DNA of 64,000 bases from an uncultured bacterium. Lineage in GTDB: Bacteria; Babelota; Babeliae; Babelales; Vermiphilaceae. The position numbers are program-made. Shown here in pieces: positions 36,001 to 54,000 of this stretch (positions within the stretch are counted from its first letter, which is position 1; every line of letters begins with the position of its first letter). Location: positions 96,001 through 160,000 of the forward strand of contig OY969699.1 of NCBI GenBank assembly GCA_963702025.1. Direction: 5' to 3'.

Positions 36001-39000
36001 TCAACAACGCCCTGCAGCGATACATCGTAGTCAAAGGCATCCATCGCATACAATAAATGAAAGATTAACGAACGTACTTCTCGTCGTGACAAATCATTAT
36101 AAGAAAAGGTTTGATCAAGGATATTCGGTTCATCCTGACGCACATCAACACAACCATTCATAGCGACCCCATTCGGTAAATTTATTTTTTAACTCGTTCT
36201 AAATATGCTGAGGTGCGTGAATCAATTTTTAATACGTCACCCTCATTAATAAAAAGAGGAACTTGAATCACAAGACCTGTTTCTAGCGTTGCAGGCTTAC
36301 TTCCTGCCCCCTGTGCTGTATCGCCACGAACACCCGGAGGGGTTTCTTTAACTTCTAGTTCCATAAATAGAGGAGGGGTAACCGCGATTGGCTTATCGGA
36401 GAAATATAAGACTGTATAAACAATCTGTTCTTTAAGAAAATCGAGCACTTCTTCAACCTGACTTTCAGTTAGGATAACCTGCTCATAAGACTCTTGATCC
36501 ATGAAGTTATAATCGTTGCCTTCTTTGTATAAATACTGCATTTGGCGGTATTCAAGATTAGGATCGGGGAACTTTTCACCTGAGCGGAAGAGCTCCTCAT
36601 GAACAAGACCGGTTAAAAGGTTTTTCATCTTCGTGCGAACGAAAGCGCCACCTTTTCCCGGCTTTACGTGATGATATTCAATAACCATATATGGAGCGTC
36701 ACGAAATAATATTTTAGCGCCCTTGCGAAAATCAGAAGTAGAAATCACCATTAATCCTTACTATAAAAGAACAATTTTTTATGGTAATTATCAGTATAGA
36801 AAGCCAAATAAAAATTGCAATTAATTCTTACGCCCGATCCAAGTGGCCAATTCGTTATTTTATTGACAAAGTGAAATAAAAAGAGATAGAAGGGATTTGC
36901 AAGATGCTATAGACTAAGAGATTATCAGAAAATTTAGCTACCAAAAAAATGACTCTCCCGCTCGCCCTGAGCTTGTCGAAGGGAGCGAGCTTACCTGATG
37001 CCGCTCGAATGGTTCGACAAGCTCACCACGAGCGGTTTTTTTAGTTTTTGGCTAAACTCTAAAGTAAAAAAACCTTAAAAGTGAGAAGATCCTATGCCAA
37101 CCCTTAATGTAATTGACCCGGAACTCTATAGCATTATTCACCAAGAAGAGTTGCGTCAAAAAAATCAGATAAGCTTAATTGCTTCAGAAAACTATGCGTC
37201 TCAAGCAGTTCTTGATGCATCTGGATCAGTGCTTACCAATAAATATGCCGAAGGATATCCGGGTAAACGATATTATGCAGGCTGCGCCTTGGTTGATCAA
37301 GCAGAACTGGTTGCCATCCATCGCTGCAAACAACTGTTTGGCGCAGAGCACGTTAATGTGCAACCCCATGCCGGGTCTCAAGCAAATATGGCAGTCTACT
37401 TTTCCATACTAAAACCGGGTGACACTATTTTAGGCATGAGTTTGGCAGAAGGAGGACATCTCACGCATGGCCATTCGGTTAACTTTTCAGGATCTTTATA
37501 TAAAGCAGTTTCCTACGGGGTCAACAAAGATACTGAACTGCTCGATTATGATCAGCTGGCAAAACTTGCCCAAGAATATAAACCAAAACTCATTATTGCC
37601 GGCGCTTCAGCTTATTCTCGAATTATCGATTTTACGCGAATCGCGCGCATTGCTCAAGAAAACAATTCTTACTTTATGGCCGACATTGCCCACATTGCCG
37701 GGCTCATTGCGGCTGAGTTGCACCCCAGCCCAATTGCAGAAGCCGATTTTGTTACGAGCACAACGCATAAAACATTGCGTGGGCCACGAGGTGGCCTTAT
37801 CATGTGCAAATCCAAGCACGCGGCATCCATTGATAGAGCAATAATGCCCGGCATGCAAGGCGGACCATTTATGAATATGATTGCCGCCAAAGCCGTTGCA
37901 TTTCAAGAGGCGCTCCAACCAAATTTTATTTCCTACCAAAAACAGACAATTAAAAATGCGCAAGATATGGCCAATGCCTTGCAAGACCTAGGATATCGTA
38001 TTGTTACCGGCGGCACTGATAACCATTTATTTATTGTTGATTTACAGTCAAAAAAAATCACCGGCAAAGCAGCTGAGGCAGCGCTGGAAAAAGCGGGGAT
38101 AATCGTAAGCCGTAGTTGCATTCCCAACGATCCTCAAAAACCGGGAATCACGAGCGGCTTTCGCATCGGGACACCGGCCTTAACCACCCGTGGCGTGGCG
38201 AATAAAGAAGATATCCAATCTGTGGCTCAACTGATTAATGATGTAATAAAAAATCATGACAATGATATGCTCCTCAAATCAATTGAAGAACAGGTGAGCA
38301 TTTTTTGCAGCAAATATCCGATTTATTAAAACACGTAGCGGATCGCAGCCGTGATAGGAAATCGTATTTCGGTGCCGATTTTGCCAATCGTAAGCGAAGT
38401 AAAGGTAGAGATAGGGACGCTTAATGCAATGTTATCACCAACTTTGGCACTTTGCGAGACAACAACCTCTGCGGTTACAACAAAGAACCAGTTTCTCCAA
38501 ATATGTATATCAAGCCCACCGTTAATACCGCCGGCAATTGACGTATTCCGTTTAAAAAAATCGATATTATCAACAGTGGTTACCGTTGAACCAACAACTA
38601 TCGCCGCTTCCAAATGGGTGCCACTATGATGCGTTAACCCTATTTTTGCGCCAAAAAACGGGTGGGCCCAATTGCAAAAGCAATAATCCCAATAATACCT
38701 GCCGCCAATATAGGCATCAAATAATCGATAGTTATGCGATGCAATCATGGCAGGCAAACGCGGTACCGATGCGGTTACAATTGCTTCTTGGTCCTTACCA
38801 CGGGCCTGAACATAATTAATTTCGCCATAAAAACGAATAGTGTCCGACCAAGCATATCCCACTTGACCGCCCACGGTCCAAGCAGTATGAAATAAGGTAC
38901 TAAAATGGGGCGATTCGAATAATGCGAGCGCAGATGTTACCGCCGGAAAGGTGAATGGCGCAAGATTCTCTTCATAACCGTGGCGCCACACTATCGGCAC

Positions 39001-51000: not shown

Positions 51001-54000
51001 CTACGTTATCTATTTTTGACACTTGCTCTTGCTTCATTCGGGTCAGCACAGGCAAATTATGATGATGATCGCAGTGCCGATTGTTGCAAAATGGATAATT
51101 GCTATGAATGTGGATGCAATCCACTCTATAGTTGCGCGTGGGATATTGCAGTGCAAGCGGGCGTTTGCCCAATCAGATGGACAGGTCGCGGCCACTGGAG
51201 TGTGCTTGAAAATGGTGCCGATGTTAATCTTTTCAGAACACCAAATTTTAGCCACTTGTATCGCCTTCCTTGGATAGTTGGCGGCCAAGTTGGCTACGCT
51301 TGGAGCGATAACGTTCGTCTTTATTTAGAATTTGATTATTTGCAAGCAAGCCGTAAAAACCGTAACAACGCTTTTAATGAATCTGCTTCATCAACAGTGC
51401 TTGATATTTGCGTTGGAAAATATAAAGCATTTGAATTTTATGTTGGTGGTCGATATTACTTTGATCGTTGGTGCGATCGTTATTCGTTCTTCTTAGGCGG
51501 TAAAATTGGGTTAATTAGTCATCGTAAAGTTCATTTTACGGGCACAATAACTTACAACTCATATATTTTGGCACCGTCATTAGTAGATACTGAAACACCC
51601 CTCTTTAGAAGCAAAACGCAGGTGAGCGGCGGCGTTAATGGTGGCATTGATATCTGCTTTGGTGGTAATTGGTCCTTTGTGATTACTGGTGAAGTAGTGG
51701 CCAATAGAGGGCCTCGTGGTCACTCAATTCCGTTAACGGGAAATCCTTTAGTTACTGCAACGAGCCTTTCAATCGGCAAAGCAGGCACGGAATTGCTTTT
51801 TCCAGTTACCGCCGGCATCAGATATAGCTTTTAAAAATATGCTGGTTTAAAGGTAAATTAATCCGTTGATTGATACTCTTGTAGCATCTTACGGCAACCG
51901 CAATTGAACGTAATTTCATTTTTATTATCCCAAAAAAGGCCTTGTTAACAACAAGGCCTTTTGATTTATAAAAGTGCAGAACTTTTCTTTACTTTTTTTC
52001 CAAATAATCCTAGTATCCCTTCATTCAGGAGTAAAGAAAAAGGGTGTGATATGGATCATGCATATTACATGAAAAAAGTTTTTGAGCTTGCCAAACAAGG
52101 AATCGGGTTAGTGAGCCCTAATCCACTTGTTGGTTCGCTGATCGTTAAAGATAGCCAAATAATTGGTGCAGGATTTCATGAGCGATATGGTCAATTTCAT
52201 GCAGAGTTGAATGCAATTGTATCTGCAAAGCAACCACTAAAAGGTGCAACCCTTTATTGCAATCTTGAGCCCTGTTGCCATACTAATAAGCAAACGCCAC
52301 CGTGCGCGCAACGTATAATTAAAGAAGGCATTTCACGAGTGGTGATTGCCAATAGAGATCCCAATCCAGAAGTAAATGGCGGAGGCATCGCCCTGCTCAA
52401 ACAAATGGGCATAGAAGTGATCGAGAATATTTGCCAGGAGGAAGGGGAATTGCTCAATGAAGTTTTTTTTACTTTTCACCGCAAAAAAAGACCATTTATT
52501 CATCTTAAATATGCACAGACTCTAGATGGTAATATTGCCTGCTCAAGTGGTGATTCAAAGTGGATCACTCATGAAAATGCGCGCAAAAAAGCACATGAGA
52601 TGCGATTAAAATATGATGCAATTTTGATCGGTGCGGGAACTTTAGTTGCCGATAATCCTGCGCTTACTATCCGCTTTATTGAATCAGAAAAAAAATGCCC
52701 GCGGCGCATAGTGCTGGGATCACTGGGATTTATTGAACCACATAATCTCGCAGTCACTGATGAATATCGGCACAAAACAATTTTAGTGACCAGTGACTCT
52801 GATTATTGGTATCATGAAAAAAAAGCTGAAAAATTCCAAAAAGATGGCATTACCATTGTGCGCGTTGATGTTGATAATGGACTTCTTAATTTGTCTCAAG
52901 TTTGCCAAAAAATGGCAGAATTAAAAATCACATCAATACTGGTTGAAGGCGGCAGCAAGATTCTTACCTCTTTTATACTAGAAAAATTATTTGATCGTAT
53001 TTCCATTTTTATTGCGCCCAAAATAATTGGCTCGGGTATAAATGCCATTGATGAGCTTGGCATTCAAAAAATGGCTGATGCATTTACTTTTGAGAAAACA
53101 AGTTTTGAAATTATTGATGATGTAATTCATTTTTCAGGAAAGCCTGCTTACGACCGGCTCGGGATGAGAAACAATGTTCACCGGATTAATTAGCGAGATT
53201 GGAACCATAACCACTATTTATGCCAATCAGGAAGGCAAAGTTTTCACCATTCATGCGAAAAAAACGGCTCGCGAGCTTGCTTTGGGTGATTCAGTCGCAA
53301 TCAACGGCACGTGCTTAACTGCAATTGATATCAAAGAAGATCAGTTCACATTGCAAGCGGTGCATGTCACCCTGCAAAAAACTAATCTAGGAGCATTAAA
53401 TATCGGATCACCGGTAAATTTGGAATTGGCACTGAAAGCATCCGATAGATTAGGCGGCCATTTTGTGCAAGGGCATGTGAATGGCATAGGCTCAATTAAT
53501 CACATTACCGCTTCCGGTAATAATTATGAGATATTAATTACTATTCCGGAACATTTACAAAAATATATGGTAAATGAAGGCTCTATCACACTAGACGGCA
53601 TTAGTCTAACTATTGCCAACGTAACTGAGCTGGGGATCATGGTATCAATTATTCCGCATACCTGGCAAGCAACAACACTTAACACAAAAAAAATTGGCGA
53701 CCCGTTAAACATCGAAGTTGATATTATTGCAAAATATGTGGAGCAATTTATCCGAAAGGGGGAAGTAAAAAATTCTGTGATTAATCGTGATTGGTTGCAG
53801 ATGCATGGATTTTGAATGCTTCGGCTCAGCATGAACGGACCTTCTTTTAGTTCGTTTCAAGTAAGCGCGAAGTGAGAATCGAGAAAGGAAAAGAGATGAT
53901 GAAGCTAAATACCATTGAAGAAGCACTGGCCGATCTTGCGCGAGGCAAAATGGTCATCGTGGTTGATGATGAAAAAAGAGAAAATGAAGGGGATATTGTT

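What a model noticed while it worked through the whole genome (the two positions that open the first line are those of the whole stretch)
38326..51834. Two expanded families of cysteine-rich outer-membrane beta-barrels
Eight paralogs of ~285 aa (g00145-149, g00154, g00158, g01318) and seven of ~500-630 aa (g00166, g00169, g00995-997, g01231, g01419), none with a Pfam or Swiss-Prot match, share a signal peptide, a cysteine cluster right after it, an all-beta body and mostly a C-terminal Phe. I read them as the major outer-membrane porins/adhesins, cross-linked by disulfides into a rigid shell like the chlamydial cysteine-rich outer membrane complex, which would suit an extracellular infective stage; the many thioredoxins, two DsbD and a VKOR would serve its making and its reduction on entry. 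New would be a second, independent case of a disulfide-locked envelope in an obligate intracellular lineage.
Evidence so far: All-vs-all BLAST clusters; sequences. AlphaFold2 on the 8-paralog alignment: 16+ strands, mean pLDDT 69 (barrel blocks 80-90); Foldseek PDB hits prob 1.0 to Legionella porin I (9nh1), OmpA, Ail, NspA, OmpW, E 2e-6 to 1e-4. Second family: model all-beta, about 20 strands, pLDDT 62. Cys content 3.5-5.7% in 7 of 8 and 3.9-4.5% in 4 of 7 members against a genome mean of 1.5%.
(Added by a program. Inside this text positions count along the whole contig: contig position 96,001 is position 1 of the stretch shown here. "Call 12" and the like, gene names such as g00115 and contig names such as C1 are that model's own, and its searches are not shown. 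The text may have been shortened before it was handed on; [...] marks where a part breaks off. The agent that wrote the report below was given it as the finding of a first reader that could run no searches.)

Follow-up and report, generated by a model that had tools for sequence, protein, structure and literature searches.

The report
Cysteine-rimmed outer-membrane barrels of Babelota
A parasitic bacterium of the little-studied phylum Babelota (Dependentiae, TM6) has multiplied two unrelated families of predicted outer-membrane barrel proteins whose many cysteines are predicted to crowd the membrane's inner face, where they likely link into a disulfide-stiffened envelope like those of Chlamydia and Orientia; no bond has been shown.

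Summary
Both families are real: 8 and 7 paralogs; 11 of 15 have 3.5-5.7% Cys against 1.4% genome-wide. The genome is Babelota. Deep-alignment models (pLDDT 90, 93) correct the folds. Family A is an 8-stranded OmpA/NspA-type barrel; family C is a 12-stranded plugged COG4313/FapF-like channel. The best new evidence is where the cysteines sit: 18% of predicted periplasmic-turn residues in family A against 2.6% of loops and 0.4% of strands, with the same bias in family C and in a small distant barrel. Seven are 97-100% conserved in 120 homologs. One A gene has the genome's top codon-bias score, and OmcA-like small secreted Cys-rich proteins occur in the same genus. A cross-linked envelope is the likeliest reading for A (about 0.5). 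Against it: no DsbA/DsbB, VKOR is patchy, peptidoglycan and Pal are kept, and cysteine richness does not follow peptidoglycan loss. It is not the second case, since Orientia TSA56 is published. Family C occurs in 151 of 151 phylum genomes, is often Cys-poor and is probably a transport channel; it was apparently noted in Babela in 2015. This scan noted similar genes twice before on other DNA.

The parts
38326..39126 (-). Family A barrel, Cys-poor paralog (266 aa from the first start codon, 3 Cys: 1 N-terminal, 2 in turn 2)
   Evidence: PF13505 E 7e-5, below cut-off
39238..40134 (-). Family A barrel, 11 Cys (6 N-terminal, 3 in turns, 2 in loops)
   Evidence: codon score at the 97th percentile
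40232..41110 (-). Family A barrel, 13 Cys
   Evidence: third-highest codon score of 1004 genes
41268..42116 (-). Family A barrel, 282 aa, 11 Cys; predicted major outer-membrane protein; the modelled copy
   Evidence: AF2 pLDDT 90.1, 8 membrane strands; Z 20.3 to NspA, 18.8 to OmpA; highest codon score of 1004 genes
42265..43197 (-). Family A barrel, 17 Cys; first gene of the five-gene tandem array
   Evidence: array at the same place next to the serine hydroxymethyltransferase-like gene (37094-38329; name recalled from motifs) in G124 and G131
42209..42241 (-). Terminator-like hairpin between the first and second array genes; a similar one lies at 41215-41245, so the genes are probably transcribed singly
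   Evidence: 20 sites found, 13.6 expected from shuffles; these are among the longest stems
45133..52701 (+). Tandem duplication of a 3.8-kb unit (45133-48923 and 48924-52701, 89.8% identical) carrying a secreted unknown gene, a family A gene and the start of a riboflavin-synthesis gene
45690..47150 (+). Secreted protein of unknown family (486 aa, 11 Cys), upstream of a family A gene; no Pfam or NCBIfam match
   Evidence: no homolog among the loci fetched from other genomes
47208..48056 (+). Family A barrel, 10 Cys
49475..50932 (+). Second copy of the secreted unknown protein (485 aa, 14 Cys, 65% identical to the first)
50986..51834 (+). Family A barrel, 10 Cys; differs from 47208-48056 at 6 of 849 bases, all in the first 108
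57604..59130 (+). Family C barrel, 508 aa, 23 Cys; 12-stranded, N-terminal helical plug, PTG motif after strand 5; COG4313/FapF-like
   Evidence: AF2 pLDDT 93.4; Foldseek FapF E 8e-11; Z 21.2 to Pput2725, 20.9 to FapF; Atlas nearest named family PF13557, 0.92
59149..61479 (+). GMC oxidoreductase with a signal-like N-terminus, 18 bases after the family C gene
   Evidence: Pfam GMC_oxred_N/C; the C + GMC pairing recurs at contig 160066-163980 and in L077, and two genes apart on the opposite strand in L071
61612..63921 (+). Second GMC oxidoreductase, 80% identical to the first; followed beyond the window by another family C gene and a third GMC gene

Best explanation
Family A encodes predicted 8-stranded outer-membrane barrels, one of them likely the cell's most abundant surface protein, whose conserved cysteines are predicted to face the periplasm and likely form disulfide bonds between neighbouring barrels and small secreted cysteine-rich proteins, which would stiffen an envelope that appears to lack LPS. 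Shown: the paralogs, their cysteine content and conservation, and the gene inventory. Predicted with high model confidence: barrel size and the position of the cysteines on short turns and on a flexible N-terminal segment. Inferred: that these face the periplasm (standard barrel topology), that the protein is abundant (codon bias), that the bonds are between molecules, that they form late or on release into oxic water or soil without DsbA/DsbB, and that DsbD with exported thioredoxins opens them again in the host. The network would add to peptidoglycan and Pal, not replace them. Family C is a separate thing: a phylum-wide, multi-copy COG4313/FapF-like gated channel, most likely for transport (my split: uptake of host lipids or other hydrophobic compounds 0.45, export or display of neighbouring surface proteins 0.3, mainly structural or adhesive 0.25). 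Its Cys-rich members would be recruited into the same network through their turn cysteines.
For: Fold: 8 membrane strands, pLDDT 90; top matches are 9nh2 Z 20.7, NspA 20.3, OmpA 18.8, OprF 18.4, OmpW 17.9. Conservation in the 120 best homologs (which include two of the window's own genes): C45, C47, C224 120/120; C52, C168 119/120; C226 118; C38 117; C37 and C241 110; C79 105; C42 81. Sidedness in 142 of 150 cluster representatives (8 short or start-less ones dropped): Cys is 430/2387 (18.0%) of turn residues, 462/17985 (2.6%) of loops, 61/14586 (0.4%) of strands; 92% have a Cys in turn 2 and 88% in turn 3. Family C repeats this: turns 12.4%, loops 3.6%, strands 0.6% in 120 homologs of the Cys-rich copy, all five turns enriched; 5.1%, 1.4%, 0.4% in 120 homologs of a Cys-poor copy. 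The small distant barrel gives 10.9%, 5.6%, 0.45% in 28 homologs (boundaries by eye) and keeps the WCD of turn 2. Distant A proteins of G053 and G134 have 0-1 N-terminal cysteines but 3-5 in turns and 2-3 in a C-terminal tail, also periplasmic; 12 of 13 representatives without terminal cysteines keep 2-6 turn cysteines, so the turn cysteines do not need an N-terminal partner. The segment holding C37, C38 and C42 is unplaced in the model (block pLDDT 48-49), like the flexible C26/C29/C33 loop of MOMP, which the structure paper assigns mainly to bonds between trimers (PMC13254160, passages); that paper also states that most membrane barrels lack cysteine. Abundance proxy: 41268-42116 ranks first of 1004 genes for ribosomal-type codon use, and 5 of 8 A genes are at or above the 97th percentile; GC3 is ordinary. 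Partners: three tandem secreted proteins of 111-171 aa with 9-10 Cys and a lipoprotein-like 94-aa protein with 7 Cys at contig 784390-788259; the trio's family is in 3 of 151 genomes, exactly the genus whose A genes carry the full N-terminal cluster. No LpxC match; Babeliales lack most LPS genes (PMC4776705). C. destructans particles show dense periplasmic material and stay infectious for four years (PMC6561590; the authors ascribe the material to peptidoglycan).
Against: No experiment or call shows a disulfide, and no coordinates were available to measure sulfur distances. The number of periplasmic cysteines shows no consistent parity (odd in 61% of close homologs; 43% of representatives), so it cannot tell bonds within from bonds between molecules; with 8 cysteines all could pair inside one protein. 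No DsbA (PF13462) in the genome and no DsbB above cut-off in 151 genomes. VKOR is in 43 of 151 and was not found in G124 (same genus, 97% complete, four A genes at 3.8-5.2% Cys) by either family or protein search; within the family the link between Cys-rich A and VKOR is 5 of 6 against 21 of 49, p=0.09. DsbD, a reductant supplier, is the common enzyme (134 of 151). The genome keeps three penicillin-binding proteins, Mur ligases and a Pal-like lipoprotein; 147 of 151 phylum genomes have PBPs. Of the four without, one has Cys-rich family C (median 5.1%, 7 proteins) and three are Cys-poor (0.9-1.1%, 3-6 proteins each), while PBP-bearing relatives reach 3.7-4.5%. Family A itself is in only 11 of 151 genomes and is Cys-poor (0.7-2.5%) in the five of family f2. 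In family C and in distant A proteins more cysteines lie in outer loops than in turns by count (8.4 against 3.8 per protein; 10-14 against 3-5). Codon bias is weak in this genome, and paralogs are not independent.
Confidence: 0.5

Rival explanations
1. The cysteines pair within each protein. The N-terminal segment folds under the barrel and is stapled to turns 2 and 3, and loop cysteines brace the outer loops, giving stable single adhesins or receptors for life in phagosomes, with no network.
For: Near-invariant spacing of C45, C47, C52, C168, C224 and C226 is what a fixed internal fold gives; residues 21-30 of the mature model are moderately ordered (block pLDDT 75); loop cysteines co-occur across loops (p 1e-5 to 1e-8; related sequences are not independent); closest folds include adhesins (NspA, Ail, Opa).
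Against: Turn cysteines persist when the terminal ones are absent or moved to the C-terminus; all five turns of an unrelated 12-stranded barrel are enriched; no preference for even counts; C37, C38 and C42 are unplaced in the model.
Confidence: 0.27
2. The cysteines stay reduced. They bind zinc or other metals, buffer oxidants met in the host or in water, or carry acyl chains that anchor the rim to the inner leaflet; DsbD and exported thioredoxins keep them reduced.
For: DsbD in 134 of 151 genomes and twice here, ten thioredoxin domains, no DsbA/DsbB; CC, CxC and CxxC spacings resemble metal-binding motifs; VKOR missing from a Cys-rich relative.
Against: A buffer would not need fixed positions on barrel turns; the same CxxC/CxC pattern in MOMP is cross-linked in elementary bodies; released particles face an oxidising outside (inference).
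Confidence: 0.15
3. Cysteines drifted into membrane-edge positions because they are tolerated there in an intracellular bacterium with a reducing periplasm; they have no specific job.
For: Family C cysteines are not fixed in position (best column 69%), and the content varies from about 1% to about 5% by lineage; Cys-poor family A members exist.
Against: Seven family A cysteines are 97-100% conserved among homologs 46-67% identical to the query; other secreted proteins are not Cys-rich.
Confidence: 0.08

Closest known systems
Chlamydial MOMP in the outer membrane complex (COMC) with OmcA/OmcB
   Same: Abundant barrel; cysteines clustered in a flexible periplasmic N-terminal segment (MOMP C26, C29, C33) and as CxC on a periplasmic turn (C179, C181) (PMC13254160, passages); small secreted Cys-rich proteins in the genome; obligate intracellular life with a released infectious form.
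   Different: MOMP is a trimer of 10-stranded barrels with an extracellular cap; family A is 8-stranded and multi-copy, with no sequence match to MOMP. No DsbA/DsbB found here; peptidoglycan genes and Pal kept; no LpxC. No OmcB-sized partner identified. Cross-linking not shown.
Orientia tsutsugamushi TSA56 disulfide network
   Same: LPS-lacking obligate intracellular bacterium whose abundant surface protein forms disulfide aggregates, more so in the extracellular form (bioRxiv 10.1101/2020.03.03.975011 and PMC5814848, passages).
   Different: Different phylum and protein; shown by immunoblot there, only predicted here. Its existence means this would be at least a third case.
OmpA/NspA/OmpW/Ail-type 8-stranded barrels (Pfam PF13505; clan name not checked)
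   Same: Family A fold (Z 18-21, rmsd 1.7-3.9 A over 133-195 residues); sub-threshold PF13505 hits; Atlas neighbours carry PF13505.
   Different: Longer extracellular beta extensions, no peptidoglycan-binding domain, 10-18 cysteines in 7 of 8 copies, tandem expansion.
COG4313/SphA channels (Pput2725, PF13557) and the amyloid secretion pore FapF
   Same: Family C: 12 strands, N-terminal plug, PTG motif at the base of the loop after strand 5 (P 114/120, T 120/120, G 114/120; FapF motif from PMC5557850); Z about 21. Neighbouring oxidoreductases recall catabolic neighbours of COG4313 genes (PMC4493636).
   Different: About 200 residues longer through extracellular loops; 6-12% identity; no Pfam hit to PF13557 for the three genome copies and two named homologs scanned; 2-15 matches per genome across a phylum (matches are not copy numbers); cysteine-rich turns; no coiled-coil N-terminus or Fap operon seen.
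[quoted passage not shown] 2015, PMC4378268)
   Same: Very probably family C: the Babela homolog P0204 (41% identical, 26 Cys) is named 'Beta-propeller domain fused to N-terminal C-rich domain'. I did not see the paper's figure or additional files, so the identity is inferred.
   Different: The paper likened them to LDL receptors; it did not propose an outer-membrane channel, a COG4313/FapF fold, phylum-wide presence or cross-linking in the passages read.

Membership tests
Chlamydial MOMP family | 10-stranded barrel | tested here: not met
   Model has 8 membrane strands at pLDDT 90; 10-stranded barrels score far lower (9nh1 Z 10.6, pOmpT 9.6) than 8-stranded ones (Z 18-21)
Chlamydial MOMP family | Sequence or structure homology to MOMP | tested here: inconclusive
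   No chlamydial porin family at E<=1 in Pfam, no PDB sequence hit, MOMP not listed in fold searches; whether its chain is in those libraries was not checked
Chlamydial MOMP family | Homotrimer | tested here: inconclusive
   Complex job gave no answer
Disulfide-cross-linked envelope (COMC-like, Orientia-like) | Abundant outer-membrane barrel with conserved periplasm-facing cysteines | tested here: met
   (sidedness from model topology); abundance only by codon proxy
Disulfide-cross-linked envelope (COMC-like, Orientia-like) | Small or periplasmic cysteine-rich partner proteins | tested here: inconclusive
   Candidates exist and share the genus range; location and binding untested; likeness to OmcA is recalled, not tested
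Disulfide-cross-linked envelope (COMC-like, Orientia-like) | Intermolecular disulfides, detergent-insoluble without reductant, stage-dependent | not testable with these tools
   Needs cells
Disulfide-cross-linked envelope (COMC-like, Orientia-like) | Periplasmic oxidase pair (DsbA with DsbB or VKOR) | tested here: inconclusive
   VKOR present; DsbA (PF13462) and DsbB not found; several thioredoxin domains follow signal-like N-termini and could stand in
Disulfide-cross-linked envelope (COMC-like, Orientia-like) | Absent or reduced peptidoglycan sacculus | tested here: not met
   Three PBPs, Mur ligases and a Pal-like protein in the genome; gene presence only
OmpA-like 8-stranded barrels (PF13505) | Eight-stranded outer-membrane barrel with signal peptide and C-terminal aromatic residue | tested here: met
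OmpA-like 8-stranded barrels (PF13505) | Score above the Pfam cut-off (28.7 bits) | tested here: not met
   19-26 bits
COG4313/SphA/FapF channels (PF13557) | 12-stranded barrel plugged by its N-terminus | tested here: met
COG4313/SphA/FapF channels (PF13557) | PTG motif at the base of the loop after strand 5 | tested here: met
COG4313/SphA/FapF channels (PF13557) | Profile match to PF13557 | tested here: not met
   No hit at E<=0.5-1 for five members; Atlas nearest named cluster carries PF13557 in 21% of members, score 0.92, a lead only
COG4313/SphA/FapF channels (PF13557) | Transport of hydrophobic solutes or of polypeptide | not testable with these tools
   Neighbour genes point both ways

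The most novel reading that the evidence does not exclude
Babelota independently evolved a redox-switched protein shell from two barrel scaffolds that Chlamydia and Orientia do not use, and the phylum-wide family C is an unrecognised FapF-like secretion pore that moves Sec-exported beta-propeller, Ig-repeat and enzyme cargo across the outer membrane. 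This would help explain how bacteria with about 44% signal-peptide proteins and only a type II system on record deliver so much to their surface and host.
Probability: 0.2. Interest if true: 0.85.

Novelty: new variant of a known kind. Interest (0 to 1): 0.6.

Why it matters
Babelota are widespread protist parasites with small, long-lived infectious particles, mostly no LPS and almost no studied envelope proteins. If the cross-links are real, a third lineage reached the chlamydial solution with different parts, which would make disulfide locking a recurrent answer to life between hosts; it can be tested in an afternoon on cultured isolates. Independently of that, family C is a universal multi-copy marker of the phylum with a transporter fold, and it offers concrete candidates for two open questions: how these lipid-auxotrophic bacteria take up host lipids and how they export their many secreted proteins.

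Tried and rejected
Homotrimer prediction for family A: score 0.14, no answer. RNA runs: none was listed. '16-stranded porin' and 'about 20 strands': rejected by the deep-alignment models. MOMP is not listed in three fold searches; that does not exclude likeness. Pairing of the two outer-loop cysteines C79 and C241: no covariation among 120 homologs (phi 0.07, p 0.6). 'Cross-linking replaces peptidoglycan': not supported across four PBP-less genomes. 'All secreted proteins are Cys-rich here': rejected. 'Family C genes sit next to large secreted proteins more than other secreted genes do': a crude hydrophobicity test found 11 of 47 downstream neighbours against 53 of 193 in the background, no enrichment; the domain-level link is real but partial. 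NCBIfam: no family for 9 of 10 proteins. Five family-C-bearing genomes with non-Babelota labels have no family A match. Promoter scan: fewer sites than chance. Literature: searches 'Dependentiae + outer membrane', 'Babeliae + secretion system' (76), 'Vermiphilus/Babela/electron microscopy/envelope' (112), 'TM6 + cysteine-rich + disulfide + amoeba' (125) and 'Dependentiae + beta-barrel' (131) listed no paper proposing a disulfide-linked envelope in this phylum; one search returned unrelated papers; the library lacks most subscription journals. My recollection that Legionella OmpS is disulfide-linked was not confirmed by the passages read and is not used. The OM-tethering preprint passages added nothing. 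A Pfam scan of all 121 rows of alignment A3 was not obtained, so the PF13557 test rests on five members.

Full report
Setting. The window lies in a 1,596,033-base single-contig genome, 95% complete. Named homologs come from Candidatus Dependentiae, Babela massiliensis and Vermiphilus pyriformis, and most titled loci are Dependentiae or Babeliales, so this is phylum Babelota, protist parasites. It has no LpxC or ketoacyl-synthase match, but three penicillin-binding proteins, Mur ligases and a Pal-like lipoprotein.

Observation. Whole-genome BLAST and profile searches return 8 close paralogs of the short family (A) and 7 of the long family (C). Five A genes form a tandem array on the minus strand at 38326-43197; two more sit in a 3.8-kb tandem duplication at 45133-52701 and differ at 6 of 849 bases; the eighth is at contig 1281149. 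One C gene is at 57604-59130, the rest are outside the window. The N-terminal cluster is a feature of A (7 of 8), much less of C.

Family A fold. With 124 sequences AlphaFold2 gives pLDDT 90.1. The best structural matches are Legionella porin III (Z 20.7), NspA (20.3), OmpA (18.8), OprF (18.4) and OmpW (17.9) (same order); 10-stranded barrels score about 10. Pfam PF13505 matches below its cut-off. So A is an OmpA/NspA-type barrel, not a general porin and not a MOMP homolog by barrel size.

Where the cysteines are. In the 120 best homologs seven cysteines are 97-100% conserved and three more 88-92%. By the usual barrel topology the N-terminus, the C-terminus and the short turns are periplasmic (established knowledge, applied to the model). 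Nine of the eleven cysteines of the modelled protein are then periplasmic: six in the N-terminal segment, one in turn 2 and two in turn 3. In 142 of 150 representatives of 50%-identity clusters (8 dropped as short or start-less) cysteine makes up 18.0% of turn residues, 2.6% of loops and 0.4% of strands. Distant members in G053 and G134 have lost the N-terminal cluster but carry cysteines in turn 1 and in a new C-terminal tail, as well as 10-14 in outer loops. A 215-aa barrel elsewhere in the genome, related to A at E 3e-5, has all four cysteines in its three turns and keeps the WCD motif; its 28 homologs give 10.9% in turns, 5.6% in loops and 0.45% in strands. The segment with C37, C38 and C42 is unplaced in the model. 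The MOMP structure paper describes the same layout (C26, C29, C33 in a flexible periplasmic loop, C179 and C181 on a turn), expects mainly bonds between molecules, and notes that most membrane barrels lack cysteine (PMC13254160, passages).

Abundance and partners. Gene 41268-42116 has the highest ribosomal-type codon score of 1004 genes of 200 aa or more, and five of eight A genes are at or above the 97th percentile; its GC3 is ordinary. The bias is weak overall and is only a proxy. At contig 784390-788259 lie three tandem secreted proteins of 111-171 aa with 9-10 cysteines and a lipoprotein-like 94-aa protein with seven. The trio's family was found in 3 of 151 phylum genomes, all of this genus, and in G131 the lipoprotein-like gene follows directly. 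Their likeness to chlamydial OmcA is from memory and untested.

Range. Family A is in 11 of 151 sampled phylum genomes: expanded and Cys-rich in this genus and three other genera of the family, Cys-poor (0.7-2.5%) in the five genomes of family f2. The wider search found 415 representatives at E<=0.001, so it is diverse but patchy. Family C is in 151 of 151 genomes across 18 families, usually with several matches.

Family C. The model (121 sequences, pLDDT 93.4) is a 12-stranded barrel with an N-terminal helical plug. Foldseek ranks FapF first (E 8e-11); the wide search gives Pput2725 (COG4313) Z 21.2 and FapF 20.9; the Atlas's nearest named cluster carries PF13557. The PTG motif that FapF and Pput2725 have after strand 5 (PMC5557850, passages) is nearly invariant at the same place. 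COG4313 channels import hydrophobic compounds (PMC4493636, passages); FapF exports polypeptide. Cysteines are not fixed by column (best 69%); the median is 3.3% among homologs of the window copy and 1.3% among homologs of a Cys-poor copy. Still, all five periplasmic turns are enriched (12.4% against 3.6% in loops; 5.1% against 1.4% in the poor group). Neighbours point both ways. Of 54 co-oriented neighbours in the loci, 14 are beta-propeller (DUF5122, 8), Ig/cadherin (4) or other Ig-like repeat proteins (2), one is a GMC oxidoreductase, two are solute-binding proteins and one is FadL. In the reciprocal test 4 of 20 DUF5122 loci had a C gene directly beside them (p 2e-4 against a rough 1.5% expectation, 0.03 after removing two loci that overlap the first set). 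A crude count of secreted neighbours showed no excess, and many copies stand in tandem arrays without obvious cargo. In this genome C genes flank three GMC oxidoreductases and a cluster of 1300-2300-aa repeat proteins, one with Ig/cadherin and one with DUF5122 matches. Because the genome lacks fatty-acid synthesis I favour import slightly over export. The 2015 Babela paper already mentions seven large secreted proteins with a cysteine-rich N-terminus and a beta-barrel, likened to LDL receptors (PMC4378268, passages); this is probably family C.

Redox enzymes. One VKOR, two DsbD and ten thioredoxin domains are confirmed; several thioredoxins follow signal-like N-termini (by eye). No DsbA match here and no DsbB above cut-off in 151 genomes. 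DsbD is near-universal (134 of 151). VKOR is in 43 of 151 by two queries: 8 of 11 A-bearing genomes against 35 of 140 others (p 0.002, kin not independent; 5 of 6 against 21 of 49 within the family, p 0.09), but not in G124, which has four Cys-rich A genes.

Against a wall substitute. 147 of 151 genomes have PBPs. Among the four without, G079 has very Cys-rich family C (median 5.1%, about ten N-terminal cysteines per protein), but G028, G043 and G096 are near 1%, and PBP-bearing relatives of G079 reach 3.7-4.5% (only the copies in the fetched loci were counted). Cysteine richness follows lineage, not peptidoglycan loss.

Mechanism. Most likely (0.5): the A barrels are inserted by BamA, present a thiol-rich periplasmic rim, and on maturation or release are oxidised into links with each other, with Cys-rich C barrels and with small periplasmic Cys-rich proteins, stiffening an LPS-free outer membrane over a retained peptidoglycan layer; DsbD-fed thioredoxins reverse this in the host. 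Every step after 'thiol-rich rim' is inferred. Rivals are bonds within single proteins (0.27), reduced thiols for metal, oxidant or acyl binding (0.15) and drift (0.08).

Novelty. Disulfide-locked envelopes are known in Chlamydia and in Orientia, so this would be at least a third case, built on different scaffolds: a new variant of a known kind. Five searches listed no paper proposing it for Babelota. Two earlier notes of this scan on other genomes reached similar ideas; they are unchecked AI notes and are not counted as support. Papers were seen as search listings and keyword passages only; no full text, figure or supplement was read.

Noticed in passing
window 45133-52701: Tandem duplication of a 3.8-kb unit in which the family A copies are 99% identical but the upstream secreted genes only 65% (protein), suggesting recent conversion or diversifying selection; the first unit ends in a truncated copy (48183-49019) of the riboflavin gene at 51961-53193.
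   Followed up: partly
G000 contig 784390-788259 (L025): Three tandem small secreted Cys-rich proteins plus a lipoprotein-like Cys-rich protein, found only in this genus; candidate periplasmic partners.
   Followed up: partly
G000 contig 89074-89316, 182041-182313, 443827-444180, 546699-547331, 1196414-1196668: Further small secreted proteins with 8-9 cysteines.
   Followed up: no
G000 contig 1369645-1386393: Cluster of three 1300-2300-aa secreted repeat proteins (Ig/cadherin, DUF5122) around a family C gene; the same layout appears in L055, L058 and L060.
   Followed up: partly
L071:6887-8417 and 12901-14619: A genome labelled Chlamydiae (2.8 Mb, locus GC 46%) holds a family C gene split over two reading frames near a GMC oxidoreductase and a 1635-aa repeat protein; possible transfer between protist-dwelling bacteria, or a binning error.
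   Followed up: partly
G000 contig 232136-233395, 628964-630259, 863608-865158, 22165-23058, 355115-357154: More unnamed outer-membrane barrels; three show GxxD and PTG-like motifs of family C by eye, and their few cysteines often lie at apparent turns; BamA has cysteines in its periplasmic part.
   Followed up: partly
window 43304-45082: A family 2 glycosyltransferase and a methyltransferase-like gene (name by eye) stay next to the family A array in G124 and G131; surface glycosylation is possible.
   Followed up: no
G028, G043, G079, G096: Four of 151 Babelota genomes (95-98% complete, three families) have no penicillin-binding protein match, pointing to repeated loss of peptidoglycan.
   Followed up: partly
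window 36939-37054, 44152-44339, 45246-45273, 49037-49064: Related intergenic inverted repeats that look like a REP-type or miniature mobile element; an IS630-like transposase pair (name recalled) lies at 56513-57395.
   Followed up: no
window 30666-31727: Two adjacent nucleoside-diphosphate-kinase-like genes (name from recalled motifs), the second with an N-terminal hydrophobic segment, suggesting an exported copy.
   Followed up: no
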